Of a stretch of DNA of 64,000 bases, positions 10,911 to 43,151 are shown piece after piece (positions within the stretch are counted from its first letter, which is position 1; every line of letters starts with the position of its first letter). Below the pieces are notes generated by a model, which saw nothing but the letters and a program-made list of their open reading frames with translations, was not told the origin of the DNA and made no database searches. The stretch is from NCBI GenBank assembly GCA_035289305.1, contig DATDXN010000016.1, forward strand, positions 18,315 to 82,314. Reading direction: 5' to 3'. A program made the position numbers and the translations under genes. This DNA is from Patescibacteria group bacterium (GTDB lineage: Bacteria > Patescibacteriota > Microgenomatia > UBA1406 > HO2-37-13b).

Positions 10911-10948
10911 TGCATCTATTCTAACAAAAAAAAGATTCTCTATTGACC

Positions 10949-10977
10949 TTGAAATATTGTAGAGGATGCGTTACAAT
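10949..10977 (+). promoter_or_regulatory. Sigma-70-like promoter for the 11003 gene
   Basis: TTGAAA (10949-10954), a 17-nt spacer, then TACAAT (10972-10977). It lies 26 nt upstream of the ATG. Confidence 0.4.
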
Positions 10978-11002
10978 ACACCTCCAAATTAGTTATAAAC
11001 AT

Positions 11003-20490: not shown

Positions 20491-22278
20491 CTATATGAGA
20501 GAGAGCTTTTTTTCCACTTGTGATAGTTTGCGAAGGTAATCCTCAAGTCTGACATCGCTTTTTTCGGTTGCTCCTTCCTCCTTCATCATGTCCCTGATCT
20601 TCTTTTTGAGGGACATTCGTTTAAATTCAAGAAGAGGCTTTTCAAAATTTTTTTCCTCTACTTCTTCAAAGATAGCAATATCAAAAAGGACTATTTCATC
20701 AAAAACAGGCACAAGCTCTTTGGGAATGACATGAGCAAAAGCGTTGACAGAAAATGAGACCGGATGATCCTGACTGCAATAATCAAGAAGATGATTGACG
20801 AGTTTCCGATGAGAAGGAAGTGTAAAATCTTCTACATCTAAAACAGTCAGTGTCTTTTTTAGTATATGATCAGGATCTTTATGCTGAAAGATCGCGTGAA
20901 GGATATAGCGAGAAAGAATGTCGCGTCGGGAAATGCTACTGCGCTGTACTGTATGTGCGCTGGGCCGACGCCGCAAGGTAGTTTTTTGTTTTGCAATGGA
21001 CTTTCTGATCAAATCTTCTATCGATCTTTCATTCACCTGAAGAAGAGCGCTCATTTTTTTCAGATAATGTGATTTCACGATGGGATTTCTGATAAGCACA
21101 AGGAAGGGAATAACTTCCTCTGCAATGTTTTTTTTCGAGAACGCGTCTTCAATGCCATATTTTGCAAGCGCAGTTTCGATAACAAAATCATAAATAGCAA
21201 TGGGGCGCTCAATACTTTTCTTAAAAAGCTGTTTATCATGCGCAATTGCTTCATCTGGATCCTTCCCATTTGCAAATCGCGCAACCATTATTTCAAAATC
21301 AAGACTTTCTCCATCGAGTATCGCTTTTTTCGTCGTTGCAATTCCCGAAAAATCTGCATCCAAACATATAATGATTTTATTCGTGTACCGCTTCAGAAGC
21401 ATGAGTTGATCACGCGTCACAGCCGATCCTTTGACCGCAACCACATTGCCAATACCTATCTGAAAACAACTCATCGTATCAAACTCGCCCTCAACCACCA
21501 CAACCATCCCCTCTTTTTTGATCGCATCTTTTGCGATATGGATGCCAAAAAGCGTTTCGCGCTTATGATATATCGGTGTCTCTGGAGTATTGACATATTT
21601 TGCCTCTTTTGTAGGCGCGATCAGTCTCCCTGAAAAACCAACGATGTTTCCCGAGGCTAGAGTCAGCGGAAACATCACTCTCTTTCTGAAGCGATCATAA
21701 TATCGCCCGCCCGCACTTTTGATGACAAGACCTGCATCAACAATTTCCTCATCACGAAAGCCCTTTTTTTTCAAAAATGTGTGGAGCGAATTCCACGACG
21801 AAGGAGCATATCCCAGGCCAAACGTCTCAATGGTTTGTGCTCTTACACTTCGCTGTACTAGATATTGGCGTGCTTTTTCTCCAACCGTATGTTTCGTGAG
21901 TAAAAAGTGATAAAATTCTTGAGCAAGATGGTTGGCCGCAAGGAGTCGCTCTTTCTTTTTCCACTCCTTATCTTCAAACGACATACCTTCAAGCGATACG
22001 CCTGTTTTCTCGGCAAGTTCTCTTAAGATTTCGAAAAAAGGTCGTGCCTCCCATTTCATCAGAAACGCGATCACGTCCCCACCTGTTTGACACGCGCCAA
22101 AACATCTCCACGATTGCCGGTCGGGCGATATGATAAACGAAGGAGTCTTTTCCTGATGAAAAGGACACAAAGCTTTGAAGTTCCGTCCCGCTTTTTTAAG
22201 AGTGATACATGACCCGATGATATCAACAATATCCACTCTTCTTTTTACCTCATCAACAACGGTATCCATACACCTCAC
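20491..22278 (-). CDS. dnaG: DNA primase
   Basis: Zinc-binding [11 protein letters not shown]...[13 protein letters not shown], a TOPRIM region (EGEFD) and an N-terminal RVDIVDIIG. Confidence 0.93.
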
Positions 22279-22994
22279 TATTCTATACTATTATCACTCC
22301 TACTCTTTCTGAAAAAATCAAGATGTTCTTTAAATGTTGAAAAAACATTGCGCCAGGTAAAAAATGCAGACCGACCGAAGATGCGGGGATAGTGATGTAC
22401 AGGAACTTCTGCAAATCGAGCGCCTCTCTTCTCCAAGTTTTTAATCAATTCGACGCAAATAAGTCCTGATGAAGCAGTCAACGTGATTTCTTTTAGGAGC
22501 GACCTCCGTATCAATCTGAAATCACAATCTATATCAGCAATTGGGAGATTATACATCTTATGAACCGTCCAATTATAGACTGTTCCAATAATCTTTCGTA
22601 TCCACCTGTCTTTTCGCTCTGCTTTATATCCGTTTACCACATCTATATGAGAGGTCGCTTTTTTCACCAGTTCTTTTAGTTCGCATGAATCATATTGTCC
22701 ATCTCCATCAGTATAAAACACCCATTCTTTCGTGGCTGATGAAAAACCAGACTGAAGCGCGCCGCCATATCCCTTGTTTTTTTCGTGGCGTATGACTTTG
22801 AGCGATGGAAAATATCGCGACAGAAGAGAAGCTACCTCATATGTATCATCACACGATCCATCATCTACGATAATGACTTCAAATTCATTTGTGACAATAG
22901 GAAGAATACTATACATTTTCACGATCAAATACGGCAAAATTTTGGCATCGTTGAAGGCCGGAAAAAATACTGAAATACTGTTAATTTTTCTCAT
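22278..22994 (-). CDS. Family 2 glycosyltransferase (polyprenol-phosphate sugar synthase / DPM1-like)
   Basis: Contains VIIVDDGSCDDT, HEKNKGYGGALQSGF and a DGDGQ DxD-like motif. Confidence 0.8.
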   Translation of the reverse strand: MRKINSISVFFPAFNDAKILPYLIVKMYSILPIVTNEFEVIIVDDGSCDDTYEVASLLSRYFPSLKVIRHEKNKGYGGALQSGFSSATKEWVFYTDGDGQYDSCELKELVKKATSHIDVVNGYKAERKDRWIRKIIGTVYNWTVHKMYNLPIADIDCDFRLIRRSLLKEITLTASSGLICVELIKNLEKRGARFAEVPVHHYPRIFGRSAFFTWRNVFSTFKEHLDFFRKSRSDNSIE

Positions 22995-24111
22995 AAAACA
23001 TGTGTATAGTCTCTGCGATATATTCTATATCATGCCGCCTCAAGAAAGCGTGAAAAGGTAGACTAATAATCTCTTTTGCCAATCCTTCAGCACAAGGAAA
23101 ATCTCCCTTTTTAAATCCTAAATGGGAAAATGCAGGGACTAAATGGACAGGATACGGATAGTGAATCAAACTTTCTATGTGATATTTTTTTAAAAACGCT
23201 TGAAGCTTATCTCTTTTTTGTGCACGCACTACCATCAAATGATATGAAGGAGTAGACGGTACGGAAGTAGAAAGAAATGTCATATATGACAATAATTTTT
23301 TTCGTCTAAAAGTTTGACGATAGATCAAAGCTATTTTTTTCTTTTTTTCAAGTTCGCGGCCAAAACGCGCAAGATACAAAGAAATCACTCCTGCCTGTGT
23401 CTCTGGTAATCTACTATGACCGGAAATGAAAAGACTCTTGTAGCGAATCTCCTCACCGTATGATCGGGCTTGCGTGAAAAACTGGTGGTATTTTGTATTT
23501 CGAGTCCAAACAGCTCCTCCATCTCCAATGGTACCTACATTTTTGGTCGGATAAAATGAAAAACAACTGATATCTCCCCACGTTCCCACGGTGCGCCCTT
23601 TAAAGAGCGCACCAAGCGATTGAGCACAATCTTCTATAAGCACGAGTTTGTTTTTCCGTGTAAGTGCATGTATTTTTTCTATATCACCAATTAAACCATA
23701 GAGATGAACTATAATAATAGCCTTCGTACGGTTTGTTATTTTCTTTTCTACTTCTTTTGGATTGATTTGACCGTTTTTATCAACATCAACCGGGACTGGA
23801 CGAGCACCAGAAAGCACCACAGGAAAAGCAGTCGGATAGCTATTGACGGGAAACATCACCTCATCGCGTGGGGAAAGACGAAGTGACTGAAGTGCAAGAA
23901 GAAGAGCATCATGTCCTGATGCAACAGTTTTTATGTATCCGCCTCCCAAAAGAGAACACAGTTTTTCTTCAAGACGCGAATTTTGCTCCCCATGCAAGAA
24001 AATTCCCTCATCAAGCACATACGAAATCATCCGTATGATATTTCTTTTGTCTTGCCGTGCGCGTTCTTTTACATCGGTGAAAGAGATATGGCGTTGCTGT
24101 ATGCCTTTCAT
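22981..24111 (-). CDS. DegT/DnrJ/EryC1/StrS-family PLP-dependent sugar aminotransferase
   Basis: The 376-aa ORF has a FSFYPTKN lysine motif and EDCAQSLGA. Confidence 0.85.
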   Translation of the reverse strand: MKGIQQRHISFTDVKERARQDKRNIIRMISYVLDEGIFLHGEQNSRLEEKLCSLLGGGYIKTVASGHDALLLALQSLRLSPRDEVMFPVNSYPTAFPVVLSGARPVPVDVDKNGQINPKEVEKKITNRTKAIIIVHLYGLIGDIEKIHALTRKNKLVLIEDCAQSLGALFKGRTVGTWGDISCFSFYPTKNVGTIGDGGAVWTRNTKYHQFFTQARSYGEEIRYKSLFISGHSRLPETQAGVISLYLARFGRELEKKKKIALIYRQTFRRKKLLSYMTFLSTSVPSTPSYHLMVVRAQKRDKLQAFLKKYHIESLIHYPYPVHLVPAFSHLGFKKGDFPCAEGLAKEIISLPFHAFLRRHDIEYIAETIHMFYEKN

Positions 24112-24129
24112 CCTCTTTGTTTGTAGAGT

Positions 24130-24684
24130 TTAATCCTTCATTGGGGTCCAAAAATCAGCCCCGAGTATATCCCAACGTATTCTTTTCTCGTCTGGATCAT
24201 GAATATTAAAATGTTTATTGACAAAATACATAAGCTCTACTGGCTCTTTTGAAAAATTGCATGATCCGTGAGCTACTCCTTTTGGAATAAACAAGAGCTG
24301 TGAATATCCTCCACCAAGTAAGATGCGCATTTTTTTGCCCCTTGTGGGCGATGATTTTCGGACATCCCAAAGGCCGGCAAAAAGGAAACTAGACGGAGGA
24401 ACATGCCACAGTTCATCCTGTTTGAAATGAAGATGCCAGGCCTTGATTGAACTTGGATTAAGTTTTGTTCTATTGACTTGCGCAATCTGAAAACCCGGCA
24501 TTTGAGAGATCTGTCCTTTTTCATCGAGCCGCACTAATTCGCAAAAATCTCCCTCTTCTCCAATAATATTTTTGAGAGAAAAAATTTCAACTCCGTGAAT
24601 AGTATCTTTTTTTGAGTAATCCTGTATATACACATCATGGATTACTGCTTCGTCAATATCTTTGATGGATAAATCTGGTGTCAT
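24130..24684 (-). CDS. RmlC-like cupin (dTDP-4-dehydrorhamnose 3,5-epimerase family sugar epimerase/isomerase)
   Basis: The 184-aa ORF has a WHLHFKQDELWHV His pair and an RmlC-like fold pattern. Confidence 0.7.
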   Translation of the reverse strand: MTPDLSIKDIDEAVIHDVYIQDYSKKDTIHGVEIFSLKNIIGEEGDFCELVRLDEKGQISQMPGFQIAQVNRTKLNPSSIKAWHLHFKQDELWHVPPSSFLFAGLWDVRKSSPTRGKKMRILLGGGYSQLLFIPKGVAHGSCNFSKEPVELMYFVNKHFNIHDPDEKRIRWDILGADFWTPMKD

Positions 24685-24809: not shown

Positions 24810-25277
24810 ATGAAATCAACAAAATCAAAAGGTTTTACCCTGATCGAACTGTTGGTAGTGATAGGAATTCTCGCGGTTCTTTTAGCAATTACGTTGATTG
24901 CCATCAATCCCGCACGTCAATTCTCCCAATCAAATAATACCAAAAGGAGAAGTGATGTAAATGCAGTACTCAATGCCATCAATCAATATATGGCAGATAA
25001 TAAAGGAACACTTCCTACTGGAATTGATGCAACGCTTCGAACTATAACCAACGATCCTGTTAATCCCGCAGGCGTTGATCTGTGTACAACATTGGTCACA
25101 CAATACATTGCAGCATTGCCGGTTGACCCATTGACAAATAATGGCACACCAGTCAGCAATTGTGCTGCAGGTACCTATGATACAAATTACACAGTCCAAA
25201 GAAGCGCTGCTGACAATAGAATTACCATACGAGCGCCAGCTGCTGAACTTGGAGAAGTCATTGAAGTAACTCGATAA
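24810..25277 (+). CDS. Type IV (major) pilin with a prepilin N-terminal methylation motif
   Basis: MKSTKSKG|FTLIELLVVIGILAV matches the G-F-T-L-I-E class III signal. Confidence 0.9.
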   Translation: MKSTKSKGFTLIELLVVIGILAVLLAITLIAINPARQFSQSNNTKRRSDVNAVLNAINQYMADNKGTLPTGIDATLRTITNDPVNPAGVDLCTTLVTQYIAALPVDPLTNNGTPVSNCAAGTYDTNYTVQRSAADNRITIRAPAAELGEVIEVTR

Positions 25278-25292
25278 ACGCACATTACTAAA

Positions 25293-25324
25293 CCTCCCCC
25301 ACTTTTTTGGGGGAGGTTTTTTTT
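25293..25324. terminator. Rho-independent terminator shared by the convergent pilin gene and the 25326 gene
   Basis: CCTCCCCCA-CTTTTT-TGGGGGAGG, a 9-bp stem, followed by T8 at 25317-25324. Confidence 0.8.
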
Positions 25325-25325
25325 A

Positions 25326-26030
25326 TTACAGTACGATCATAATGATCAATATGATGACAAGAACCGCAAATACCCCGACAAAAAGATATAGTCGGCGTTT
25401 CCCACGTTTTTGAAGAGAAGGATTTTTATTATTATTGTTTTGCACTTCTTTTTTTTGAGATATAACCTCTTCTTCAAGGAGACTGTACTGACGAAACGAG
25501 TCACTATTTTTGAGGATCCATCGTGCCGCGTCAGTAGTCATTCCTTGTGCAAATAAAACGCCTCCTACAAAATCAGGAATGATTAATTTTATTGGAAAAC
25601 CGTGTTTCACCAATATATCTTTCACTGGTTCGTAAAAATCCTTGTTTACTCCGATTACTTTCATTATTTTTTCCAACCGAAACATTTTTTTCATCACATT
25701 TTTGAAAGGAATTGCATCAAGGAAATATTGTATGCTGGACACTATATTTTCCTTTTGTTCCTCCACAGAAAAGTCTTTTTCGAACACGGCGTTTCTTGAA
25801 ATTACCATAATACTATGAAGAGGTGTGAGTGCATTCACCTGGATAAAAGTGGATATCAACGTGTTTAATTTTTGTATATCAATAATTTCCAAGTCGCGTA
25901 CGCTATCTTGCGGAAACTCACAAGAAGGTATCGCGACTTTATTATCCGAATAAAAACTTAGTTTATTTTGATCGAGGTAAAATACCCCTCCTGCCTTTTG
26001 AAATACCATAGCTACGGCACCTCCCTCCAC
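25326..26030 (-). CDS. Hypothetical pilus-locus protein with a C-terminal transmembrane anchor
   Basis: The 234-aa ORF has a hydrophobic C-terminus LYLFVGVFAVLVIILIIMIVL. No family assigned. Confidence 0.5.
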   Translation of the reverse strand: MEGGAVAMVFQKAGGVFYLDQNKLSFYSDNKVAIPSCEFPQDSVRDLEIIDIQKLNTLISTFIQVNALTPLHSIMVISRNAVFEKDFSVEEQKENIVSSIQYFLDAIPFKNVMKKMFRLEKIMKVIGVNKDFYEPVKDILVKHGFPIKLIIPDFVGGVLFAQGMTTDAARWILKNSDSFRQYSLLEEEVISQKKEVQNNNNKNPSLQKRGKRRLYLFVGVFAVLVIILIIMIVL

Positions 26031-26404
26031 GAAATAATTGTTAGTATGTTATTATTATAACTTACCACAATCTCAATGTATCTTACAAAGTTCCCGCTTG
26101 TTCCCTTTGAAAGAATGGTCTTCGGATCCCCTGCCGAAACGGTAATTTCGGCTATTCCCCCCTCAAGACTTACTGTTTCACCCGTATAAGAAGGATTGCG
26201 CAAAAGCCGCAAGATTGCATTTTCTCCTCCTGCCTCGGCCAGGTAAAAAGCTCGTGTTCCTTCTTGCAATTTGGTTGTGCTTGAAGCATTTACAACCATA
26301 AGAATGACTGCAGCTGATGTGATAACAAGTGTAATGCTTGCAAAAACTAAAAGTAGCACGAGACTCTGGCCTTTTTGGAAAAATAGTCTACTTTTTCTTT
26401 TCAT
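26012..26404 (-). CDS. Pilin-like protein (atypical prepilin N-terminus; PilX-like?)
   Basis: MKRKSRLFFQKGQSLVLLLVFASITLV has an N-terminal TM helix after a Gly but lacks Glu at +5. Confidence 0.45.
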   Translation of the reverse strand: MKRKSRLFFQKGQSLVLLLVFASITLVITSAAVILMVVNASSTTKLQEGTRAFYLAEAGGENAILRLLRNPSYTGETVSLEGGIAEITVSAGDPKTILSKGTSGNFVRYIEIVVSYNNNILTIISWREVP

Positions 26405-26898
26405 CGCGTACTCACCGTCATGGTGAAATTTTGGACACGCGGTCCGTGTTTAACTACCGTAACACTCTCAATAGTAAAATTTACTCGTATTGTGTTCTTG
26501 CCTCCACTGTTTCCAATTCTTTTGAATGTAAGATTAGTTAAACGAGTATTAACACTATTTAGTTGATTTGTCCCATTATTGTTTATTATCACGAGATTCC
26601 CACCCTGCAACTGGTATGTGTTATCTACACCAGAAAGTACTATAGCCATAGTACTGTCTGATGAACCCAGTGCTGGAGAAATAATAGCCTCGCTTCTCTC
26701 TATGTCGTACATGAGACGAGTCAAAATGAAACGCCCATCTATAGACACGGCAGACGTCGTCTCTGCCTCAAGACGAGTTTCAAGCGATGTAACAAATATG
26801 TTGGTTAAAATAATAAAAAAAACAGAGAGAAAAAGCATATAGATAATAAGTTCAACGATTGTTGTCCCTTTGTTCGTTGTTGCAAACTGTATGTTCAT
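26401..26898 (-). CDS. Minor pilin / pseudopilin
   Basis: TNKG|TTIVELIIYMLFL is a prepilin motif with E at +5. Confidence 0.75.
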   Translation of the reverse strand: MNIQFATTNKGTTIVELIIYMLFLSVFFIILTNIFVTSLETRLEAETTSAVSIDGRFILTRLMYDIERSEAIISPALGSSDSTMAIVLSGVDNTYQLQGGNLVIINNNGTNQLNSVNTRLTNLTFKRIGNSGGKNTIRVNFTIESVTVVKHGPRVQNFTMTVSTR

Positions 26899-28805
26899 GG
26901 TGAATAGTTAACGGTAATTTCGTGAAAAATGGGAGAGGAAGTCGTATCGATTGAGGAAAGATATGCTTTGTATCTGAAGCATTGACCCGGATTTTCAAAT
27001 CCTGAACCATCATCATCAAGAGGTATGGGCGAGGAACCAGTGAAAAAACTTGTCGAAGTCCCGTCAGGCCCTACATAGATAAAATTCGCCCCGCTGCATC
27101 CTCCCCCACTTGGGTCAGCAACAGCCATTTGATACTGAATCTGTGTTCCGGGGGGCATGTTTTCGATAGTCACAAATCTATTAAAAGCCGTCATGTAGCC
27201 CGAATCAAAAATACTTGATTCAAAAGTACCCGAGTCTGTGTATAATCCTCCTGGACCCCCTTCAATAATTCTTAACTCCTGTGTAGCGTCACCAGTTATG
27301 ATGTATGAATATGCATCTCCATCCATCTCAAGCACCGTATCTACCCCACGTATACCTGACGCAATGGATATTCCTCCACAATGAACAGGATTTGATTCAT
27401 TGCTAATATCAAGCACCAGATAATTCTCTCCACCATCTCCAACAATAACAACGCGATTACCTGTGGTCACTGCAACATCTTGAGGAGTAGTCATATTATT
27501 TATTATATAAATGCCCTGTATGCCATATGTTGCCAAGTCAAGAATATAAAATTGCCCTCCCGCAGTTGGATACTGTTGATTGATAATATATAGCCGTGTT
27601 CCAGTCGAGTTAATGGCTAACCCCTTCCCTCTTCCTGCTAAATTAAGGTTTAGTATCAATGTAAGATTGGCAGGATTGCTCACGTCTATAATCTGAAGAT
27701 CAACAATATTTCCATATACCGGTATATATGCTTTGCCATTTGCAACCACTATAGATTCCGACGCCGCCTGATAACTCAATGTAAAACCATCGCTGTCCAG
27801 GAGTGGACGCGATCCATTTTTACTCGTCAGATCAAAATTCCATAATGTATTTCCCTGCACCATATATCCTATATTCCCTGAAACGGTCACGTTGATCGCA
27901 TCGGTAGGTCCCGGCGCATCAAAATACCCAACCTCTGTATATGGCGATGTTGAAACGTCAATAATGACAATTTCTTTTGCATTATTATCTGTTGCAAGAT
28001 ATACATAATTTGATTGACTAAAAATATCATTTGTTTTATATCCGTCAAAAGTACCAATAATCGTCGGTACGGGAGGATTGGTATTGCTCACCGCCACGTT
28101 TGCAAACGAAACGCCTGAAGAATTATCTCCTGTTGCGGCAAATACATGGCCCTCATAGGCCGATAGCGCATTTGCCACACCATTTTTTGGCAAATCCAAC
28201 ATCACCAGAGATGGGTCGGGCTGACACCAGTCTCCCCCACCTCCTGCTCCCAATATCACTTCTCCCCCTGCGGTATTTGTCACGGCTACACCAGTTTTCA
28301 CCCCAGCATTGAAATCCGCTTCAGTCGTTTGAATAAAAGAAAGATTTTCAAAACGAGAAACATAGGTAACCTGATCAATGGAGGATGCAAATGGCAAGGA
28401 CCATGAAACGATCACTCGAACTCGTTTGGTTGATGGATCAAGCGCCCCTGAAGTGAGTGTAATTGCTCCACTTGCATCCCGATACACATCGCTTATTTCT
28501 ATCTGACGGATATATCCATTGATTGTCTCTGTCCCCGTCATCAAAACCCATGAGAAATCTGCCGATTCCTCCGGATGAAATGTTCCATTGATGGCAAAAG
28601 TGCTCCAGCCTTTTTCCCGCACGCTTCGGACTGCCTCAAATGCTTCCTTGGTCAAAGCAGTCGCTTCAAGCCTTTGAAATTGTTGGGCTTTTCCTTCCCG
28701 TGATGCAATAAAACCGGCAAAAAGCGCCGGCAGAATAATCGCTGAAATCCCGATAACAATAATAATCTCAATGAGCGACTGGCCGCGATGATACAATACC
28801 TGCAT
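26895..28805 (-). CDS. Large prepilin-type protein (636 aa) with LVIVD-like beta-propeller repeats; candidate pilus tip or adhesin subunit
   Basis: HRG|QSLIEIIIVIGI prepilin signal. It contains repeated blocks (VYLATDNNAKEIVIIDVS, LYIINQQ...FYILDL, VVIVGDGGENYLVLDIS) and Gly-rich stretches. Confidence 0.7.
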   Translation of the reverse strand: MQVLYHRGQSLIEIIIVIGISAIILPALFAGFIASREGKAQQFQRLEATALTKEAFEAVRSVREKGWSTFAINGTFHPEESADFSWVLMTGTETINGYIRQIEISDVYRDASGAITLTSGALDPSTKRVRVIVSWSLPFASSIDQVTYVSRFENLSFIQTTEADFNAGVKTGVAVTNTAGGEVILGAGGGGDWCQPDPSLVMLDLPKNGVANALSAYEGHVFAATGDNSSGVSFANVAVSNTNPPVPTIIGTFDGYKTNDIFSQSNYVYLATDNNAKEIVIIDVSTSPYTEVGYFDAPGPTDAINVTVSGNIGYMVQGNTLWNFDLTSKNGSRPLLDSDGFTLSYQAASESIVVANGKAYIPVYGNIVDLQIIDVSNPANLTLILNLNLAGRGKGLAINSTGTRLYIINQQYPTAGGQFYILDLATYGIQGIYIINNMTTPQDVAVTTGNRVVIVGDGGENYLVLDISNESNPVHCGGISIASGIRGVDTVLEMDGDAYSYIITGDATQELRIIEGGPGGLYTDSGTFESSIFDSGYMTAFNRFVTIENMPPGTQIQYQMAVADPSGGGCSGANFIYVGPDGTSTSFFTGSSPIPLDDDGSGFENPGQCFRYKAYLSSIDTTSSPIFHEITVNYSP

Positions 28806-28814
28806 AGCTTTTGA

Positions 28815-29309
28815 TTAGTTTAGTCCATACAACGATCCATAACGATTAAAATAAAACGTTTTTCTTTCATTACTTCCCATATACTCAAGTGTGAAAAAAT
28901 TGGAAGCAGGATCAAAGTTTTGCACCTCTCCCGAGAGCTTTCCAAAAGTGACAAATGAATTTGCAAAACCAATGGCTGAAAATTGCATCTGCGGGGATAA
29001 ATCAATACGAATATTTGAAGGTTCCATTGGATCGTATGTTGCGCCATGAAAAAGCGTATATCTTCCTTGTTCAAAATTTACTCCATAATCAGATGTCGAA
29101 CCTCTCCCTTCTGCATCCCCTACCATTGCCTTGATTTGTTGTTGTTTGATGTCGGCAATCAAAGTTTCTGTGGTTGTTGCAAATGTTGTTTTACCAAAAA
29201 GATTTGAAGTATTGATCGTCGAGACAGAGAGCAAAACTCCAATAATACTCAACACAATAATAAGCTCCAGAAAAGTTATCCCCTGCTGGTTTTTTCTTAT
29301 ATCACTCAT
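28815..29309 (-). CDS. Minor pilin / pseudopilin (GspH/FimT-like)
   Basis: NQQG|ITFLELIIVLSIIGVL is a prepilin motif. Confidence 0.75.
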   Translation of the reverse strand: MSDIRKNQQGITFLELIIVLSIIGVLLSVSTINTSNLFGKTTFATTTETLIADIKQQQIKAMVGDAEGRGSTSDYGVNFEQGRYTLFHGATYDPMEPSNIRIDLSPQMQFSAIGFANSFVTFGKLSGEVQNFDPASNFFTLEYMGSNERKTFYFNRYGSLYGLN

Positions 29310-29334
29310 TGCCTAAAAACACCTCTTAAGATTT

Positions 29335-30384
29335 TCATCGTGATCCTATATTGCCTATCAAATTATAAATTGGGCCGATAATTGAAAACATCATACTTCC
29401 CACCAAAACCCCGACCACAATGAGCATAATAGGTTCAAGCAAGGTAGTAATTGTTTGAAGTGTTTTTGCTACTTGATAGTCAAGATATAAAGAAACGTCT
29501 TGCATTGATTTGTCGAGAGTCCCGCTTTTTTCGCCTGCTTCGGTAATTTTAACCATCATACTTGGAATAATTCTCCCATGCATTTTAAAACCTTCTGAAA
29601 GTCTTTTTCCTCCAAGCACCATTTCTCTTGATTTACTAATCGCTTTTGCTATTTCTTTTTTCACCACCACATCTTGAGTGAGTTCAAGCGCTGTCGTGAT
29701 AGGAACACCTGATGACAGTAAGAGGAAGAGGCTCCGAGTAAAGCGTGTCAGATCTATTTGCTTTACCAGAAGAGAGATAAATGGGAGTTGAGAAAGGAAA
29801 GAAAAAAGTATTCTTTTCTTTTTGGCATACATATAAAAAAGGAAGATAACGATCAAAAGCGTGCATATGCCGGAAACAATTGGATGTTTGACGAGGATAT
29901 CCGAGATAAAAACTAAAATTCTTGTGGGAAGAGGAAGAGGTATTCTTAAGCGACTGAATACGATAAAAATCCGCGGTATCACAAATACCAGGATGACTAA
30001 AAGAACAGCCGCAAAGACAAGGAATATGAGTGCCGGATATATAAGCGCTGATCTAATTTTATCGTTAAATTCTATCTCTTTTTTGATATTTTCCCGCAGA
30101 TCTTTTAAAACCACTTCAAACGTTCCCCCTTCTTCTGCTGCTTTTAAAATGTTGGTGGTAACTTTATCAAAAACATGGGGAAATTTAGAAAAAGAAATAT
30201 ATACATGTTTCCCCTGCATCAAATCTTCTCTCACGGTTTCCAGAATCTTCTTTTGATTACCTTTTGCATCAATAAGCAACGCATCTACAGCTTCAAGAAT
30301 AGGAATACCAGCGATAAGCATCGTTGCAAAATTGCTGATGAGTGTCAGTTTGTCACTTGATGATAACGTAATAGTTTTGAACAT
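29335..30384 (-). CDS. pilC: Type IV pilus / type II secretion platform protein (GspF/PilC family)
   Basis: The 349-aa ORF has tandem T2SS-F domains and several TM segments. Confidence 0.85.
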   Translation of the reverse strand: MFKTITLSSSDKLTLISNFATMLIAGIPILEAVDALLIDAKGNQKKILETVREDLMQGKHVYISFSKFPHVFDKVTTNILKAAEEGGTFEVVLKDLRENIKKEIEFNDKIRSALIYPALIFLVFAAVLLVILVFVIPRIFIVFSRLRIPLPLPTRILVFISDILVKHPIVSGICTLLIVIFLFYMYAKKKRILFSFLSQLPFISLLVKQIDLTRFTRSLFLLLSSGVPITTALELTQDVVVKKEIAKAISKSREMVLGGKRLSEGFKMHGRIIPSMMVKITEAGEKSGTLDKSMQDVSLYLDYQVAKTLQTITTLLEPIMLIVVGVLVGSMMFSIIGPIYNLIGNIGSR

Positions 30385-30390
30385 AGATGG

Positions 30391-32082
30391 TTATACGTCA
30401 ACTCTCGTTACTCGAAGCACCTCCTCGAGCGTCGTAATACCCTTTTTCACTTTTTCAAGCCCGTCATCAAGCATTGTCGTCATTCCTTCAGTACTTGCTT
30501 CCTGCGCAATCATATCGGCATCATTTTTCTCCGTGATGAGTTTGCGTATTTTGTTGGTTATCTCAAGCACTTCAAAAACTGCTATTCGCTCCGAGTACCC
30601 TGTAAAACGGCAAATTTTGCATCCTTTTCCCTTATATAGTTGTATTTCGCTCTTGTTTCCAAATAATTTTTTCATAATTTCCAGCGGAATTTTTCCGACA
30701 AGATCATTTTGATGAACAGTCAATGAAGAATTACACATCTCGCAAATCCTGCGCAGTAACCTCTGGGCAATAATGATATTGACGGTGGAACCAACAAGAA
30801 ACGGCTCAACTTTCATATCAATAAGCCGAGGAAGAGCAGTTGCCGCATTGTTTGTATGGAGTGTTGAAAGAACCAGATGACCGGTCAAAGCAGCATTTAC
30901 CGCAATTCCCGCTGTTTCATTATCTCTAATTTCTCCAACAAATATGATGTTTGGATCTTGGCGCAGGATTGACCGAAGTCCGTTTGCAAAGGTAAGGTTG
31001 GTTTTGGGATTGGCTTGAATTTGATTTACTCCGCGGATGCGATATTCCACCGGGTCCTCTATGGTGGTAATATTTCTGTCTCTGGTGTTTAAGATTTTGA
31101 GAATTGCGTAGATGGTACTTGTTTTTCCTGATCCTGTCGGACCTGTTGCCAAAATCATACCAAAAGATTTATTCATAACACCCTCTACTTTCCGCAAATC
31201 TTTCTCCCCCATGCCTAAATCTATGAGCGTAAATCGGCGCGACTGGGAAGCAAGTAGTCGCAGCACAACCTTTTCTCCTTCGGCGATAGGAATTATGGAA
31301 ACACGAATGTCGAGATTCTCATCGGTCACATTTATGCGCATCTTTCCATCCTGCGCACTCAAATGTTCGTCTGTCCGAAGTTTCGAGAGTACTTTTATTC
31401 GCGCAATAATTTGCTCATGAATATTTTTTGGGAGTCTTACCGTATCGTGGAGTACCCCATCTATCCGAAAACGCACTAAACTGGCATCTTCTATAGCCTC
31501 AATATGTATATCTGACGCCTTATCCTGATATGCGTCATTTATGATGATATCAACAATCTGCGCAATAGGAGCTTCGTTTGTTTTGTGTAATTTTGTTCCA
31601 ATGCCTTGTGCATTAATAAGCTCATTAATTGTTTTTTGTACATCCTTTTTATATATACGAAATGCGTTGCTAATATCTCTTTCAGTGGCGAAATAAGGAA
31701 TAACTTTGGATCCTGTCTTTTTTGCAATGACTCGCTGTATTTCACCATCGGATGGATCTTGCATGGCTATTTTGACACTTTCTTTATCTCGAGCAAAAGG
31801 GATAACCTTGTATTTCCGAGCAACACTCTCGGGAATAATATGAAAGACTTCATCGGAAATGAACGTTTTGGAAAGGATTACAAACGGGAGCTTAAAAAAA
31901 TCAGCAATAAGAAGACCTAGATTTGCGTCTGATATAATATCTTGCTCCACAAGTACATTTTGAAGAGGACTCTTATTTTCGTGGGCAAGACGAACGAGCT
32001 CTTCTAGCTTCTTTGCGTCGACTAACCCCTTCTGTGTAATAAGCTGTTTGAGATTTTCATCGGTAATAACCATATATTTCAA
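30391..32082 (-). CDS. pilB: Type IV pilus assembly ATPase (GspE/PilB family)
   Basis: Walker A GPTGSGKTST, a tetracysteine motif (CEMC...CKIC) and a GspE N-terminal domain. Confidence 0.9.
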   Translation of the reverse strand: MKYMVITDENLKQLITQKGLVDAKKLEELVRLAHENKSPLQNVLVEQDIISDANLGLLIADFFKLPFVILSKTFISDEVFHIIPESVARKYKVIPFARDKESVKIAMQDPSDGEIQRVIAKKTGSKVIPYFATERDISNAFRIYKKDVQKTINELINAQGIGTKLHKTNEAPIAQIVDIIINDAYQDKASDIHIEAIEDASLVRFRIDGVLHDTVRLPKNIHEQIIARIKVLSKLRTDEHLSAQDGKMRINVTDENLDIRVSIIPIAEGEKVVLRLLASQSRRFTLIDLGMGEKDLRKVEGVMNKSFGMILATGPTGSGKTSTIYAILKILNTRDRNITTIEDPVEYRIRGVNQIQANPKTNLTFANGLRSILRQDPNIIFVGEIRDNETAGIAVNAALTGHLVLSTLHTNNAATALPRLIDMKVEPFLVGSTVNIIIAQRLLRRICEMCNSSLTVHQNDLVGKIPLEIMKKLFGNKSEIQLYKGKGCKICRFTGYSERIAVFEVLEITNKIRKLITEKNDADMIAQEASTEGMTTMLDDGLEKVKKGITTLEEVLRVTRVDV

Positions 32083-32459
32083 GAAGGTGTAGAGCGTCCT
32101 ATGATATTCATAATTTTTGCTTTAAGATTTGCGAAATCAAAAGAACTTTTATCCACATAATCCAGAGCACCTAATTGTTTTGCCTTTTTTACATCTTCTT
32201 CCTGTCCCAGCGTTGAAAAAATAATAACCGGAATTTTTTTGAGCGTGGAGTCTTGCGACATGTCTTTGAGCATTTCAAATCCATCTTTTTTCGGCATGAT
32301 GATATCGAGAATGATAAGGGACGGTATGATCTCTCGCGCTTTTTGAAGTCCTTCCTCTCCATTGGATGCGGTATAAACTTCCATCCCTTCTTCTTTCAGC
32401 TTTGAGGTGTAAAATTTTTGGAAAAAAACGTCATCCTCTACAAGGAGTATCTTAGTCAT
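32079..32459 (-). CDS. Single-domain response regulator (CheY-like receiver)
   Basis: KILLVEDD, the phosphoacceptor region ...IILDIIMPKKDGFE, and a conserved K in KIPVIIFS. Its start overlaps the pilB stop at ATGA. Confidence 0.8.
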   Translation of the reverse strand: MTKILLVEDDVFFQKFYTSKLKEEGMEVYTASNGEEGLQKAREIIPSLIILDIIMPKKDGFEMLKDMSQDSTLKKIPVIIFSTLGQEEDVKKAKQLGALDYVDKSSFDFANLKAKIMNIIGRSTPS

Positions 32460-32851
32460 ATGACACTTTGATGAAGAAATCGTTCTAATTTTTGTGTGTA
32501 TAAACTCACATCTTTCTCCTTATTACTCTCCCGTATCATAGTAAACGATTTCTCCACGGCCACAATCGCATCTTGTAGGACTACCCCAAGTGTATTCGCA
32601 AAAACGAGCTGATTGCTTTTGATTTTGTAAAAAACATGTTCAATCATTTTGCAAAGACTCCCTGTTTGAACAAAACCCATGATCATATGTTCTGAAGCAA
32701 GCGAGTGTGCTGCAAGATATATACGATCGATAATTACACTGTCCCTGTTACCTTTCATAAGGTCATCTACCCCATTTTTCATATCGCGAATATAATTCGC
32801 TGCTGTTTCTGCATATACATACTTAAATGCAAATGTGTCATTGACAGGCAT
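32456..32851 (-). CDS. Hypothetical protein, possibly an Hpt-like phosphotransfer domain
   Basis: The 131-aa helical protein has AAHSLASEH, which resembles the Hpt HxxKG region. Co-operonic with the receiver gene. Confidence 0.35.
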   Translation of the reverse strand: MPVNDTFAFKYVYAETAANYIRDMKNGVDDLMKGNRDSVIIDRIYLAAHSLASEHMIMGFVQTGSLCKMIEHVFYKIKSNQLVFANTLGVVLQDAIVAVEKSFTMIRESNKEKDVSLYTQKLERFLHQSVI

Positions 32852-35848: not shown

Positions 35849-36910
35849 TTAGTCATTTAACCAGAATACAACCTGATTTTTTAATTGGAGAGAAAGCCTA
35901 TAAGCATTTGCGTGACCAAGATACCCAAGGTAAGATTGAACCGATTGATTCAATAACCCAGAAGATATTTTATTCATCTTGTAAAGTTGAACTTTTTGGT
36001 AAATCTTTTTAAATATTCTTCTTTTTGTCTTTGTTCTGGGTAAAACGAAGTGAGGAAAGATTACATATCCCAAAAAGTCTACGCCCAGATAATAGTTCTT
36101 TATTTCGATTTTTTGTGGATGTAATGATAACGTCAATTTAGAATTGAGAAATTCCTTTATACTTGTTATTAACCCTTCGAGGTATTCCCTACTCTCTGAC
36201 AAAATTATAAAATCATCCGCATAACGAATGTAATATTCTACTTTAAGTTCATGTTTTATATAGCGATCTAAAGGATCGAGGTAAATGTTAGCAAATAATT
36301 GTGAAGTGAGATTACCAATTGGCATACCCTTGGGAAATTTCAGATCTGTTGTAAATTCTGAACTAAAACTACTGACAATTTCTTTTAATAACCACAAAAA
36401 GTCTTCGTCCTGAATTCTTTTGTTCAGTAATTTTATAAGTATCTCGTGATCAACATTGGCAAAAAACTTTTTAATGTCGCATTTTAAAGCAAACAATGGA
36501 AAAGTATTATTTTTACTTGCCTTCCTTGAAAATCTGATAAATGCCTCAATGGCTTTAAGAGTTCCTTTTTCTCTGCGGCAGGAATACGAATGAGTATAAA
36601 ATGTTGAATCAAATATTTTTTCTAATAATCTGCTTGCGAGATGGTGAACAACCCTATCTTTCACACAAGCTTTTGATATGTGGCGGACTTTCGGATCCCT
36701 AATATAAAATGATTTATATCCACCATGCTCGTATGTTTTATTTTGCAAGTTTTGATGCAACTCGAATAGGTTATCTTCTAAAAATCTTGCAAAAGCTACA
36801 ACATCGGTTTTTTTCTTTTTGCCGATTATAAACTCGTCCCACGCTTGGAAAACAGCTTCAATCGTGCTACTATGAGAGTAGATGGTATGCCAAATTCTCA
36901 TGGTTTTCAA
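35849..36910 (-). CDS. Diversity-generating retroelement (DGR) reverse transcriptase
   Basis: YADD box (YIRYADDFIIL) and the DGR-specific motif-4 PIGNLTSQLFANIYL (I/LGxxxSQ). The N-terminus KKKKTDVVAFARFLEDNLFELHQNLQNKTYEHGGYKSFYIRDPKVRHIS is typical of DGR RTs. Length is about 350 aa. Confidence 0.85.
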   Translation of the reverse strand: MKTMRIWHTIYSHSSTIEAVFQAWDEFIIGKKKKTDVVAFARFLEDNLFELHQNLQNKTYEHGGYKSFYIRDPKVRHISKACVKDRVVHHLASRLLEKIFDSTFYTHSYSCRREKGTLKAIEAFIRFSRKASKNNTFPLFALKCDIKKFFANVDHEILIKLLNKRIQDEDFLWLLKEIVSSFSSEFTTDLKFPKGMPIGNLTSQLFANIYLDPLDRYIKHELKVEYYIRYADDFIILSESREYLEGLITSIKEFLNSKLTLSLHPQKIEIKNYYLGVDFLGYVIFPHFVLPRTKTKRRIFKKIYQKVQLYKMNKISSGLLNQSVQSYLGYLGHANAYRLSLQLKNQVVFWLND

Positions 36911-37264
36911 TCAAATAACCGAACTTTTGATTTTCCTATTTTTCAAAAAATATACGAAACATATAAACGTTTCTATTGTTATCTCGTCAATTTTCCCAAA
37001 AAAGATAAATATACCCTTGGTCAACGTTGCGAGAATGCGCTTTTGGATTTTTTAGAAACTATCGTAATAGCAGGAGGATTATCTAAAACTGAAAAATTTC
37101 CTGTATTGCAAAAGGCAAGTACAAAGCTTGATTTAGCAAAAATATTCATAAGATTGTGTAAAGATTTAAAAATTCTTGATAATAAAAAATACCTTGAACT
37201 GGAATCTTCTCTCCAAGAAATAGGCAGGATGCTTGGTGGTTGGATTAAATCCTCCTCCACTTAA
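36887..37264 (+). CDS. avd: Accessory variability determinant (Avd), a four-helix-bundle protein
   Basis: FPKKDKYTLGQRCENALLDF...LDLAKIFIRL...LQEIGRMLGGWIKSS matches the four-helix-bundle/Avd family. It is encoded antisense to the RT, TR and target. Confidence 0.7.
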   Translation: MPNSHGFQSNNRTFDFPIFQKIYETYKRFYCYLVNFPKKDKYTLGQRCENALLDFLETIVIAGGLSKTEKFPVLQKASTKLDLAKIFIRLCKDLKILDNKKYLELESSLQEIGRMLGGWIKSSST

Positions 37265-37274
37265 AGAAAATAAT

Positions 37275-37395
37275 ACTACCGCAACACGGAAACCGATGTT
37301 ATCGTTCGAGTTATCAGGTTGATTCCAATTGGCGTTCCCAGCACCACCGAGGTCAGAGTTACCAACCATGAGACGGTTCGAACCACCGGACTCAC
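37275..37395 (-). repeat. DGR template repeat (TR), 121-bp core
   Basis: It aligns base-for-base with 37821-37941. The minus-sense TR has A wherever the variable repeat differs, and is Asn-codon rich (VGNSDLGGAGNANWNQPDNSNDNIGF). Confidence 0.8.
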
Positions 37396-37760
37396 GCGTG
37401 TATTGCCCCTTTTCTTTCCTGAAGTAAGTATGACCTACTTCATTGTTACCACTGAATGTTAATCCAAAACACCTTATCTTTATATTCGAACCGAGATGGT
37501 CTTTAGACATTAAAGACTATCTCCTGTATTTAACATGGCTCAATCATTTCTTATTGATGCCTTCAAAAAGGGACAAGTAGTTTCATCTTCCTATTTGCTC
37601 TCTTTTGACAGGCGTACCCATCAAAACTCGGGCTTTAAATAAAAAGTGAGATTTCGTGAGATGTAGGCGTACCCACATCTGCATTAACAAAATCTATTGT
37701 GAAGCATAAAGAAGAATAAGGAAAAAATCAAGTGTAAATGCTATTTCTATTTATAGTCAT

Positions 37761-40410: not shown

Positions 40411-40444
40411 TATACCAGATTTTTATAGTTGTTAACTACTGGCA

Positions 40445-43102: not shown

Positions 43103-43151
43103 AATTGTCAAAATTTTTTGTGTACAGTATATAAACAGTATATAATATGTT

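What the first reader, a model, noticed from the sequence alone, without database searches (positions are those of the whole stretch)
24810..32851. Type IV pilus locus with a 636-aa prepilin carrying a beta-propeller-like repeat domain
The locus holds a major pilin, three or four minor prepilins, PilC and PilB. One prepilin (26895-28805) has a canonical G|QSLIE signal followed by about 600 aa with LVIVD-like repeats, a plausible pilus-tip adhesin of the PilY1 functional analogue type. No prepilin peptidase, PilT or PilMNO was recognised in the window; the 25326-26030 ORF with a C-terminal TM helix is a possible PilM/N/O candidate. Such pili are thought to mediate host-cell attachment or DNA uptake in small-genome bacteria.
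Basis: partly seen in the sequence, partly recalled or inferred. Interest (0 to 1): 0.55.

Follow-up and report, generated by a model that had tools for sequence, protein, structure and literature searches.

The report
Pilus operon with propeller-bearing tip pilin
This is a complete-looking type IV pilus gene cluster from an ultrasmall (Patescibacteria/Microgenomates) bacterium. One pilus subunit carries a seven-bladed propeller, probably for grabbing a target, and the design is shared by at least 170 related species but has never been studied in this group.

Summary
At 24810-32851 there is a type IV filament operon:
- Hpt-like protein and receiver domain
- PilB and PilC
- three prepilins with canonical G|xxxxE signals (164, 636 and 165 aa)
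- a 130-aa pilin-like protein that lacks Glu5
- a 234-aa tail-anchored protein
- a 155-aa major pilin

The 636-aa ORF is not a fusion artefact. The identical protein sits on 14 contigs, and hundreds of homologues 630-650 aa long share about 50% identity. AlphaFold2 (pLDDT 88) predicts an N-terminal pilin helix and head, a seven-bladed beta-propeller, and a C-terminal beta-sandwich. Foldseek matches seven-bladed WD40 propellers (TM 0.79).

Gene order is identical in 80 species-representative genomes of Gottesman-, Roizman-, Levy-, Ames- and Woesebacteria. No PilD, PilT or secretin lies in the window or within about 8 kb of the operon in those relatives.

The kind is known:
- Modular pilins, including the pilin+LVIVD architecture, were catalogued in 2021.
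- A propeller-bearing minor pilin (PilX2) mediates host binding in Saccharibacteria.

I rate this a new, uncharacterised member of a known kind, of moderate interest.

The parts
32456..32851 (-). Hpt-like phosphotransfer protein (131 aa), first gene of the operon
   Evidence: Pfam Hpt E 0.0032, below cutoff. NCBIfam CheA N-terminal region 2e-4. The syntenic gene in L007 carries a full Hpt hit. A homologue sits in the same position in 19 of 80 related loci.
32079..32459 (-). Single-domain response regulator (receiver, 126 aa)
   Evidence: Response_reg 1.9e-23. A REC homologue was detected in 36 of 80 related loci, usually directly upstream of PilB.
30391..32082 (-). PilB-type assembly ATPase (563 aa) with an N-terminal MshEN domain
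   Evidence: T2SSE 1.8e-122, MshEN 1.3e-15. TIGR02538 PilB 1e-155 and GspE 3e-153, both below the equivalog cutoffs.
29335..30384 (-). PilC/GspF platform protein (349 aa)
   Evidence: T2SSF 6.3e-45 in two stretches. GspF 1.7e-65.
28815..29309 (-). Minor pilin 1 (164 aa), signal QQG|ITFLE
   Evidence: N_methyl 1.1e-6. Weak GspH/ComGD similarity. Motif scan. Present in 80 of 80 loci.
26895..28805 (-). Modular minor pilin (636 aa): class III signal HRG|QSLIE, pilin helix and head, seven-bladed LVIVD propeller, C-terminal beta-sandwich
   Evidence: Glu13 is invariant and Gly8/Gln9 are at least 90% conserved in 61 homologues. The protein has four Cys (194, 476, 570, 609) and all are invariant.
28326..28805 (-). 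Pilin module of the 636-aa protein (about aa 1-160): alpha1 helix 4-65, beta-sheet head 74-150
   Evidence: AF2 secondary structure.
27246..28223 (-). Seven-bladed beta-propeller (about aa 195-520)
   Evidence: AF2 gives 28 strands in 7 sets of 4. Foldseek: ATG16L1 WD40, E 2.5e-10, TM(target) 0.79. LVIVD Pfam hit. Seven repeat motifs. Blades 1-2 and 6-7 are the most conserved, blades 3-5 the least.
26898..27245 (-). C-terminal beta-sandwich domain (aa 521-636) with invariant Cys570 and Cys609
   Evidence: AF2 pLDDT about 90. Conserved in both the 636-aa and the 1015-aa forms. The fold family was not identified.
26401..26898 (-). Minor pilin 2 (165 aa), signal NKG|TTIVE
   Evidence: Motif scan. 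No Pfam hit. Homologue in 78 of 80 loci.
26012..26404 (-). Pilin-like protein (130 aa) lacking Glu5 (QKG|QSLVL)
   Evidence: Glu5 is absent in the window and in four relatives (L005, L007, L008, L009). Homologue in 76 of 80 loci.
25326..26030 (-). PilM/GspL-like protein (234 aa): cytoplasmic actin-fold domain, basic stretch and a C-terminal TM helix. The true start is probably Met8 (26009).
   Evidence: AF2 pLDDT 81. Foldseek: PilM 5eq6 5.8e-7, GspL 4pht 2.2e-6, EpsL 1w97, FtsA. 30% identical to the syntenic 371-aa protein of L005, which adds a LytR_C ectodomain. 984 cluster representatives at E<=1e-3.
25290..25319 (.). Perfect 12-bp hairpin with a T-run between the convergent operon and the major pilin gene: a likely shared terminator
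   Evidence: (I4).
24810..25277 (+). Major pilin (155 aa), signal SKG|FTLIE. It is inverted relative to the operon in this genome only.
   Evidence: N_methyl 1.8e-8; GspG-like 4.6e-11, below cutoff. Median 59% identity in 60 relatives, where it lies on the operon strand.

Best explanation
The locus encodes a secretin-less type IV filament machine of a Microgenomates-group Patescibacterium.

**Proposed mechanism.** PilB (ATPase) and PilC (platform), tethered by a reduced PilM/GspL-like membrane protein, polymerise the 155-aa major pilin. Assembly is primed by a four-protein minor-pilin complex: the 164-aa pilin, the 636-aa pilin, the 165-aa pilin and the Glu5-less 130-aa protein. This complex ends up at the filament tip.

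The 636-aa subunit is a modular pilin. Its N-terminal pilin module inserts in the filament. Its seven-bladed LVIVD propeller and C-terminal beta-sandwich are displayed at the tip as a binding module for a conserved ligand on a partner cell or surface. The upstream Hpt and receiver pair probably gates pilus activity by phosphorelay.

**Shown here:**
- gene content
- class III signal motifs
- domain architecture from a confident model
- PilM/GspL-like fold of the 234-aa protein
- strict synteny in 80 species

**Inferred:**
- tip location
- adhesin function and ligand
- regulation
- processing by a PilD encoded elsewhere
For: - **Machine parts and pilins:**. All four G-x4-E ORFs in the 64-kb window are in this locus.
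- **One real gene:** identical on 14 contigs; 754+ homologues; 61-sequence alignment with invariant Glu13 and four invariant Cys.
- **Architecture:** AF2 pLDDT 88.3, pTM 0.72, with helix 4-65, head 74-150, 7x4 strands over 200-516, and sandwich 525-635. Foldseek gives seven-bladed propellers with TM 0.67-0.79 on the target. LVIVD hit and seven motifs.
- **Module behaviour:** a roughly 1015-aa variant has two tandem propellers on the same pilin module and the same C-terminal domain.
- **Synteny:** PilB-PilC-pilin-BIG-pilin-pilin-PilM-like-major in 80 species representatives.
- **Glu5-less subunit:** conserved. From my own knowledge, not checked here, GspK/PilX-type tip subunits also lack Glu5.
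- **PilM/GspL fold:**
- **Composition:** G+A+S+T is 32-36% in the five pilins against 18-23% in PilB, PilC and the PilM-like protein, which fits exposed versus cytoplasmic or membrane location.
- **Precedents:**
  - TM7x PilX2, a minor pilin with a seven-bladed propeller, is needed for host binding but not for filament extrusion (PMC11623550).
  - Modular pilins are proposed to be tip-exposed carriers of binding modules (PMC8179133).
Against: - No experiment exists for any member of this family.
- The propeller pilin is more conserved than the other minor pilins: median 48% identity against 35-44%. This approaches PilC at 55% (the loci were selected by similarity to this protein, so the figure is biased upward). 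Such conservation is unexpected for an adhesin that tracks different hosts, and it also fits a structural or priming role.
- N_methyl is below the Pfam cutoff for this protein.
- PilD, needed to process it, was not found in the window or near the operon in relatives.
- Without a linked PilT, retraction is unsupported.
- No ligand-binding site was identified. The PilM-like model rests on a 6-sequence alignment.
Confidence: 0.6

Rival explanations
1. The propeller pilin is mainly a core assembly component. In this reading it is a covalent fusion of a core minor pilin with a PilY1-like priming or plug module, required to start filament polymerisation. Adhesion would be secondary or absent.
For: - It has a fixed position inside the minor-pilin block in 80 of 80 loci.
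- It is more conserved than its neighbouring minor pilins, with the propeller blades that close the ring (1-2 and 6-7) most conserved.
- No separate PilY1-like gene is present.
- In Myxococcus, PilY1 and the minor pilins prime assembly (cited in PMC11623550).
Against: - In TM7x the propeller pilin PilX2 is dispensable for filament extrusion.
- The one- versus two-propeller variation looks like tuning of a displayed module.
- The conservation figures are biased by how the loci were chosen.
Confidence: 0.22
2. The filament is a competence-type (Com-like) DNA-uptake pilus, or a short T2SS-like pseudopilus. The large subunit would bind DNA or act as a piston tip rather than attach to cells.
For: - The major pilin and PilC score best against the GspG and GspF models. 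PilB scores almost equally against the PilB and GspE models. All are below the equivalog cutoffs.
- No PilT is linked in any of 80 loci.
- Patescibacteria depend on scavenged nucleotides. This is my own knowledge, not checked here.
Against: - No ComEA/ComEC or secreted-substrate genes were seen in the operon or window.
- Propellers are not known DNA-binding pilin modules.
- In TM7x, T4P mutants showed no competence defect.
- A T2SS pseudopilus in a cell without an outer membrane has no obvious role.
Confidence: 0.12
3. The 636-aa ORF is an assembly or annotation artefact that fuses a small pilin gene to a separate surface-protein gene.
For: None found. One relative (L061) has the gene split in two ORFs, most simply a frameshift in that assembly.
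Against: - The protein is identical on 14 independent contigs.
- Hundreds of same-length homologues exist.
- The alignment is continuous with invariant residues across all domains.
- It is a single ORF in 79 of 80 genomes.
- The model is confident throughout.
Confidence: 0.01

Closest known systems
PilX2 of Nanosynbacter lyticus TM7x (Saccharibacteria), a minor pilin with a C-terminal seven-bladed propeller (PMC11623550)
   Same: Same superphylum and same concept. A pilin N-terminal helix carries a seven-bladed propeller, and the gene sits among the minor pilins of a T4P locus. PilX2 is experimentally required for efficient host binding but not for filament extrusion.
   Different: - The PilX2 propeller has RCC1 repeats; this one has LVIVD repeats plus an extra C-terminal beta-sandwich.
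- PilX2 was not predicted to carry a PilD signal, whereas this protein has a canonical G|QSLIE with invariant Glu5.
- TM7x loci encode full PilM, PilN and PilO. This operon has one reduced PilM/GspL-like protein.
Modular type IV pilins (Streptococcus sanguinis PilB with a vWA module, PilC with a lectin module; catalogue in Raynaud et al. 2021, PMC8179133)
   Same: A pilin module is fused to a bulky functional module, which is proposed to be tip-exposed and to mediate adhesion. Dataset S1 of that paper lists IPR012902 (pilin) + IPR013211 architectures with 1, 2 and 5 copies, and the text mentions a 12-copy Falkowbacteria protein. IPR013211 is the LVIVD repeat.
   Different: - None of the LVIVD-bearing pilins has been studied.
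- Most members of this family probably escaped that catalogue. Only 1 of the 120 listed homologues has a precomputed N_methyl hit.
- This family has a third, C-terminal domain.
PilY1/PilC tip adhesins of Pseudomonas, Neisseria and Myxococcus T4aP
   Same: A seven-bladed propeller is associated with the minor-pilin tip complex. The proposed roles in adhesion and/or priming are shared.
   Different: - PilY1 is not a pilin: it has no class III signal and docks non-covalently on the minor pilins.
- No Pfam PilY1-domain match at E<=0.1.
- No PilY1 among the top 50 Foldseek matches.
- The analogy is functional, not family membership.
GspL (T2SS) and PilM (T4aP) alignment proteins
   Same: The 234-aa protein has the same fold as the cytoplasmic actin-like domain of PilM/GspL. 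Like GspL, that domain is followed by one TM helix. Longer family members add an extracytoplasmic domain.
   Different: - About 190 aa against about 350 aa for PilM.
- No sequence match to Pfam PilM_2 or T2SSL in any of 76 members.
- The ectodomain, when present, is LytR_C rather than the GspL/PilN-type domain. It is absent in the window's protein.
- No PilN or PilO partner was found.

Membership tests
Type IV pilin (class III signal peptide protein) | Short basic leader ending in Gly(-1), Glu at +5, then about 20 hydrophobic residues that form alpha1 | tested here: met
   MQVLYHRG|QSLIEIIIVIGISAIILPALFAGFIA. Picked up by the motif scan. Glu13 is invariant and Gly8/Gln9 are at least 90% conserved in 61 homologues.
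Type IV pilin (class III signal peptide protein) | Match to Pfam N_methyl (PF07963) above the gathering score | tested here: not met
   15.8 bits against a cutoff of 21.2, E 0.011. The +1 residue is Gln, not Phe/Met. The short model is known to miss divergent pilins, so this lowers confidence only slightly.
Type IV pilin (class III signal peptide protein) | Lollipop fold: long N-terminal helix packed on an antiparallel beta-sheet head | tested here: met
   AF2 gives helix 4-65 and strands 74-150 at pLDDT about 80-94. This is a prediction, not a solved structure.
Type IV pilin (class III signal peptide protein) | Cleavage and N-methylation by a prepilin peptidase, and incorporation into filaments | not testable with these tools
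   No PilD in the window. The rest of the genome is not available.
LVIVD-repeat beta-propeller proteins (PF08309 / IPR013211) | At least one repeat above the Pfam gathering score | tested here: met
   32.5 bits against 20.2, aa 351-387. PF08309 is precomputed for most of the 120 listed homologues.
LVIVD-repeat beta-propeller proteins (PF08309 / IPR013211) | Tandem repeats of about 42-50 aa that fold as propeller blades | tested here: met
   Seven hydrophobic-x-hydrophobic-hydrophobic-D/E motifs at 43-49 aa spacing, one of them degenerate. Seven four-stranded blades in the model. Seven-bladed structural matches.
PilY1/PilC adhesin family (PF05567 / IPR008707) | Sequence match to the PilY1 C-terminal propeller domain | tested here: not met
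   No such Pfam hit at E<=0.1. No PDB sequence relative at all.
PilY1/PilC adhesin family (PF05567 / IPR008707) | Non-pilin protein that docks on the minor pilins | tested here: not met
   The propeller is on the same polypeptide as a pilin module.
PilM / GspL cytoplasmic alignment proteins (for the 234-aa ORF) | Actin-like (ASKHA-type) cytoplasmic domain | tested here: met
   The Foldseek top 33 hits are all PilM, GspL/EpsL, FtsA or another actin-fold protein, E 5.8e-7 to 5e-4, TM 0.36-0.44. The model has pLDDT 81.
PilM / GspL cytoplasmic alignment proteins (for the 234-aa ORF) | Sequence membership in Pfam PilM_2 (PF11104) or T2SSL (PF05134) | tested here: not met
   0 of 76 family members hit either model at E<=1. 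The profile-versus-PDB search finds none.
PilM / GspL cytoplasmic alignment proteins (for the 234-aa ORF) | Encoded in a type IV filament operon, next to the ATPase, platform or pilins | tested here: met
   It lies between the last minor pilin and the major pilin in 70 of 80 loci.
PilM / GspL cytoplasmic alignment proteins (for the 234-aa ORF) | Binds the assembly ATPase and/or the PilN N-terminus | not testable with these tools
   No complex prediction or experiment was available.
Type IVa pilus system (complete) | PilB, PilC, PilD, PilT, PilMNO(P), PilQ, and major and minor pilins | tested here: inconclusive
   - Present: PilB, PilC, the pilins and a PilM-like protein.
- Not found: PilD, PilT, PilN/O and a secretin, either in the window or within about 8-10 kb of the operon in relatives.
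- PilD and PilT may lie elsewhere in the genome. A secretin is not expected without an outer membrane.

The most novel reading that the evidence does not exclude
Microgenomates may use a distinct, minimal subtype of type IV filament machine with two defining features.

1. The PilM-PilN-PilO alignment complex is replaced by one GspL-like single-pass protein: a half-size actin-fold domain, a TM helix, and optionally a wall-binding LytR_C domain.
2. The PilY1-type propeller has been made a covalent, obligatory part of the conserved four-subunit priming complex. The same polypeptide would then both nucleate the filament and recognise a ligand common to many hosts.
Probability: 0.3. Interest if true: 0.55.

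Novelty: new member of a known kind. Interest (0 to 1): 0.35.

Why it matters
Type IV pili are the best candidate organelle for how ultrasmall Patescibacteria find and attach to host cells. Experimental data exist only for Saccharibacteria.

This operon gives Microgenomates, a large uncultivated group, a defined and strongly conserved candidate tip module that can be tested. The propeller plus beta-sandwich can be expressed without the pilin helix and used for glycan or cell binding, or as bait to identify hosts in enrichments.

The locus also shows a reduced PilM/GspL-like component that sequence models miss. That matters when 'missing' pilus genes are scored in reduced genomes.

It does not change the general picture, since modular pilins and propeller-bearing pilins are already described.

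Tried and rejected
- **Word-indexed homologue search for the 234-aa ORF:** found only the query itself, and only 12 proteins with a 5-sequence profile. The exhaustive search was needed.
- **Profile-versus-PDB sequence searches:** gave nothing meaningful for the 636-aa family. For the PilM-like family they matched only the LytR_C part.
- **PilD and PilT:** looked for among the window ORFs of 110 aa or more that were scanned with Pfam, in about 9 kb beyond the window's 3' end, and around the operon in 84 related loci. None was found. PilD was checked by Pfam only. The 80 loci were screened only for PilB-type ATPases. The whole genome could not be read.
- **Invertible element around the major pilin gene:** considered because the gene is on the opposite strand here but on the operon strand in 68 relatives. 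Only weak flanking inverted repeats exist (20 nt, 75%), so a phase-variable switch is rejected.
- **Link between the nearby DGR and the pilus:** considered, but no evidence was found.
- **Rfam and tRNA scans of the window:** empty.

Full report
**1. What is in the sequence**

The ORF map matches the finding exactly. One operon runs on the minus strand from 32851 to 25326:
- a 131-aa Hpt-like protein
- a 126-aa receiver domain
- PilB (563 aa)
- PilC (349 aa)
- a 164-aa prepilin
- the 636-aa ORF
- a 165-aa prepilin
- a 130-aa pilin-like ORF
- a 234-aa ORF ending in a TM helix

A 155-aa prepilin gene lies convergent on the plus strand (24810-25277). It is separated from the operon by a perfect 12-bp hairpin with a T-run (25290-25319).

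Pfam and NCBIfam confirm PilB (T2SSE 1.8e-122 plus MshEN), PilC (T2SSF 6.3e-45), the receiver (1.9e-23) and the N-methylation motif in the 155-aa and 164-aa proteins. They also give one LVIVD repeat above threshold in the 636-aa protein.

A scan of all window ORFs of 60 aa or more for Gly-x4-Glu followed by a hydrophobic stretch returns exactly four, all in this locus. The 130-aa protein has the Gly and the helix but Leu at +5. This lack of Glu5 holds in four relatives.

The window has about 40% G+C, no tRNA and no Rfam hit.

**2. The 636-aa ORF is one real, conserved gene**

- The identical protein is encoded on 14 contigs from different samples.
- A search of 5.8 billion proteins returns 754+ homologues. 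The best 120 are nearly all 630-690 aa long at about 50-60% identity. They come from Woese-, Gottesman-, Levy-, Ames- and Roizmanbacteria and are labelled 'hypothetical' or 'PulG'.
- A 61-sequence alignment has 56% mean column identity. Glu13 is invariant, Gly8 and Gln9 are nearly invariant, and all four cysteines (194, 476, 570, 609) are invariant.
- A scan of one genome per species finds 170 genomes that encode a relative.
- A subclass of about 1015-1040 aa has the same pilin module, two tandem propellers and the same C-terminal domain. The propeller therefore behaves as a duplicable module.

**3. Fold**

AlphaFold2 on that alignment gives pLDDT 88.3 and pTM 0.72. The model has:
- a helix at 4-65
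- a beta-sheet head at 74-150
- a short connector
- 28 strands in seven groups of four between about 200 and 516
- a beta-sandwich at 525-635

Foldseek against the PDB gives 825 matches at E<=0.001. The compact top matches are seven-bladed propellers: the ATG16L1 WD40 domain (E 2.5e-10, TM on the target 0.79), WDR55 and DDB1-BPB. A Bacteroides surface-layer protein and BtuG also appear.

PilY1 is not among the 50 listed matches, and there is no Pfam PilY1 match. Seven LVIVD-like motifs occur at 43-49 aa spacing, with the third degenerate. Blades 1-2 and 6-7 are the most conserved and blades 3-5 the least. No solved structure is related by sequence.

**4. The 234-aa ORF**

It has no Pfam or NCBIfam hit, and the word-indexed search found almost nothing.

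It is nevertheless 30% identical (pairwise E 7e-27) to the gene in the same position in a 1.08-Mb relative. That gene continues after the TM helix into a LytR_C domain. An exhaustive HMMER search finds 984 cluster representatives at E<=1e-3. They fall into two length classes, about 220-280 aa and about 350-410 aa. 21 of 76 sampled members carry LytR_C.

AlphaFold2, on only 6 sequences, gives pLDDT 81. The model has a beta-beta-beta-alpha-beta-beta-alpha-beta-beta-alpha-beta-alpha domain, a disordered basic linker and the TM helix.

The Foldseek top 33 PDB matches are all PilM (P. aeruginosa 5eq6, E 5.8e-7; Thermus 2ych; Myxococcus 3jc8), GspL/EpsL cytoplasmic domains (4pht, 1w97, 1yf5, 5tkw), FtsA, or another actin-fold protein. 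No member matches the PilM_2 or T2SSL sequence models.

I read it as a reduced PilM/GspL-like alignment protein with GspL-like topology. The basic stretch before the TM helix places the domain in the cytoplasm, which is an inference from the positive-inside rule. The family alignment suggests the true start is Met8 (26009). That start would remove the overlap with the upstream gene.

**5. Synteny**

The order PilB-PilC-pilin-BIG-pilin-pilin(no Glu5)-PilM-like-major pilin recurs on one strand in four individually inspected relatives and in 80 species-representative loci.

| Component | Loci with a homologue (of 80) |
|---|---|
| 164-aa pilin | 80 |
| 636-aa propeller pilin (BIG) | 80 |
| PilC | 78 |
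| 165-aa pilin | 78 |
| 130-aa pilin-like | 76 |
| PilB | 73 |
| PilM-like | 70 |
| Major pilin | 68 |
| REC | 36 |
| Hpt | 19 |

Most absences are at contig ends. Each locus has only one PilB-type ATPase, so no PilT is linked. The Pfam tables for the five loci with called genes show no Peptidase_A24 within 9-10 kb.

Many record titles say 'Gammaproteobacteria' or 'Pseudomonadales'. Names such as HK-STAS-PATE-15 and the roughly 1-Mb genome sizes point to mislabelled Patescibacteria.

Only in the window's species is the major pilin gene inverted. I found no convincing flanking inverted repeats.

Median identity of the window's proteins to their counterparts in the relatives:

| Protein | Median identity (%) |
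|---|---|
| PilB | 60 |
| Major pilin | 59 |
| PilC | 55 |
| BIG (636-aa pilin) | 48 |
| 130-aa pilin-like | 44 |
| 165-aa pilin | 36 |
| 164-aa pilin | 35 |
| Hpt-like | 28 |
| PilM-like | 27 |

The loci were selected by similarity to BIG, which inflates its value.

**6. Mechanism**

- **Shown:** a type IV filament gene set with one major pilin, four minor pilin-like subunits, an ATPase, a platform and a PilM/GspL-like protein. One minor pilin carries a propeller and a further domain.
- **From established knowledge of T4P/T2SS** (Treuner-Lange et al. 2020, as cited in PMC11623550; Raynaud et al. 2021, PMC8179133): four core minor pilins prime assembly and remain at the tip. Bulky modular pilins are most easily accommodated there.
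- **From my own knowledge, not checked here:** GspK/PilX-type subunits lack Glu5.
- **Inference:** the 130-aa Glu5-less protein caps the filament, and the 636-aa subunit sits in the tip complex with its propeller and sandwich exposed as a binding module.

The closest experimental precedent is TM7x PilX2, a minor pilin with a seven-bladed RCC1-type propeller. It is needed for efficient host binding but not for filament extrusion.

The Hpt and receiver pair upstream of PilB suggests phosphorelay control, which is an inference. The pilins' G+A+S+T content is 32-36%, against 18-23% for the cytoplasmic or membrane parts. This fits surface exposure.

The main rival reading is that the propeller pilin is primarily a priming or structural component. 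Its conservation and fixed position favour that. The TM7x precedent and the one- versus two-propeller variation argue against it. Com-like DNA uptake or a pseudopilus cannot be excluded, because the machine parts score equally well against T2SS models and no PilT is linked.

**7. Comparison with what is known, and novelty**

Raynaud et al. searched InterPro for pilins with extra domains and found 264 architectures. These include IPR012902+IPR013211 in 1, 2 and 5 copies, and an 860-aa Falkowbacteria protein with 12 copies. IPR013211 is the LVIVD repeat. The architecture is therefore catalogued, though uncharacterised.

Most members of this family were probably missed by that catalogue. Their N_methyl score is below threshold: only 1 of the 120 listed homologues has a precomputed PF07963 hit.

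Full-text searches for LVIVD with pilin, and for CPR with pilin and propeller, found no paper on this family.

Verdict: a new, uncharacterised member of a known kind. The side result is that the operon's 'orphan' 234-aa gene is a sequence-invisible PilM/GspL-like protein. Interest is moderate (0.35).

Noticed in passing
window 35849-36910 (-), 37264-37396, 37807-40410 (-): A diversity-generating retroelement.
- A 353-aa reverse transcriptase (RVT_1 1.6e-24) lies next to a 133-nt template repeat (37264-37396).
- Its 84%-identical copy (37809-37941) sits at the 3' end of an 867-aa gene that contains an AAA_5 domain.
- Nearly all mismatches are A in the template copy and another base in the gene copy, which is the DGR signature.
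- It lies about 3 kb from the pilus operon, with no evident link.
   Followed up: partly
window 24810-25277 (+) versus L014-L090: The major pilin gene is inverted (convergent with the operon) in this species. It is co-oriented in all 68 relatives where it was detected. A perfect 12-bp hairpin (25290-25319) separates the two transcription units. No strong flanking inverted repeats were found, so it looks like a fixed inversion rather than a switch.
   Followed up: yes
window 22278-24684 (-): Directly beside the major pilin gene lie a dTDP-sugar isomerase-like gene, a DegT/EryC1 aminotransferase and a GT2 glycosyltransferase. A large glycosylation and polysaccharide cluster spans 43-63 kb. Pilin glycosylation is conceivable, but this adjacency is not seen in the relatives inspected.
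   Followed up: partly
L009 16876-20664: In a relative that has the two-propeller pilin, a 1262-aa protein with RCC1 repeats (another propeller type, as in TM7x PilX2), a Peptidase_M23 domain and Big_13 lies just after extra pilin genes.
   Followed up: no
L011, L013, L014, L018, L020-L022 and many others: Many public MAG records that carry this Patescibacteria-type operon are titled 'uncultured Gammaproteobacteria' or 'Pseudomonadales', for example HK-STAS-PATE-15, a 1.08-Mb contig. These are probably taxonomic mislabels in the records.
   Followed up: no
window 37807-43522 (-) and 10943-12865 (+): Three large proteins of unclear function:
- 867 aa (AAA_5; the DGR target)
- 1025 aa (transglutaminase-like core)
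- 640 aa with no Pfam match

   Followed up: no
L007 13800-16124: In a Levybacteria relative, thioredoxin and DsbD-like genes directly follow the major pilin gene. This is of possible relevance to the four invariant cysteines of the propeller pilin and the two in the major pilin.
   Followed up: no
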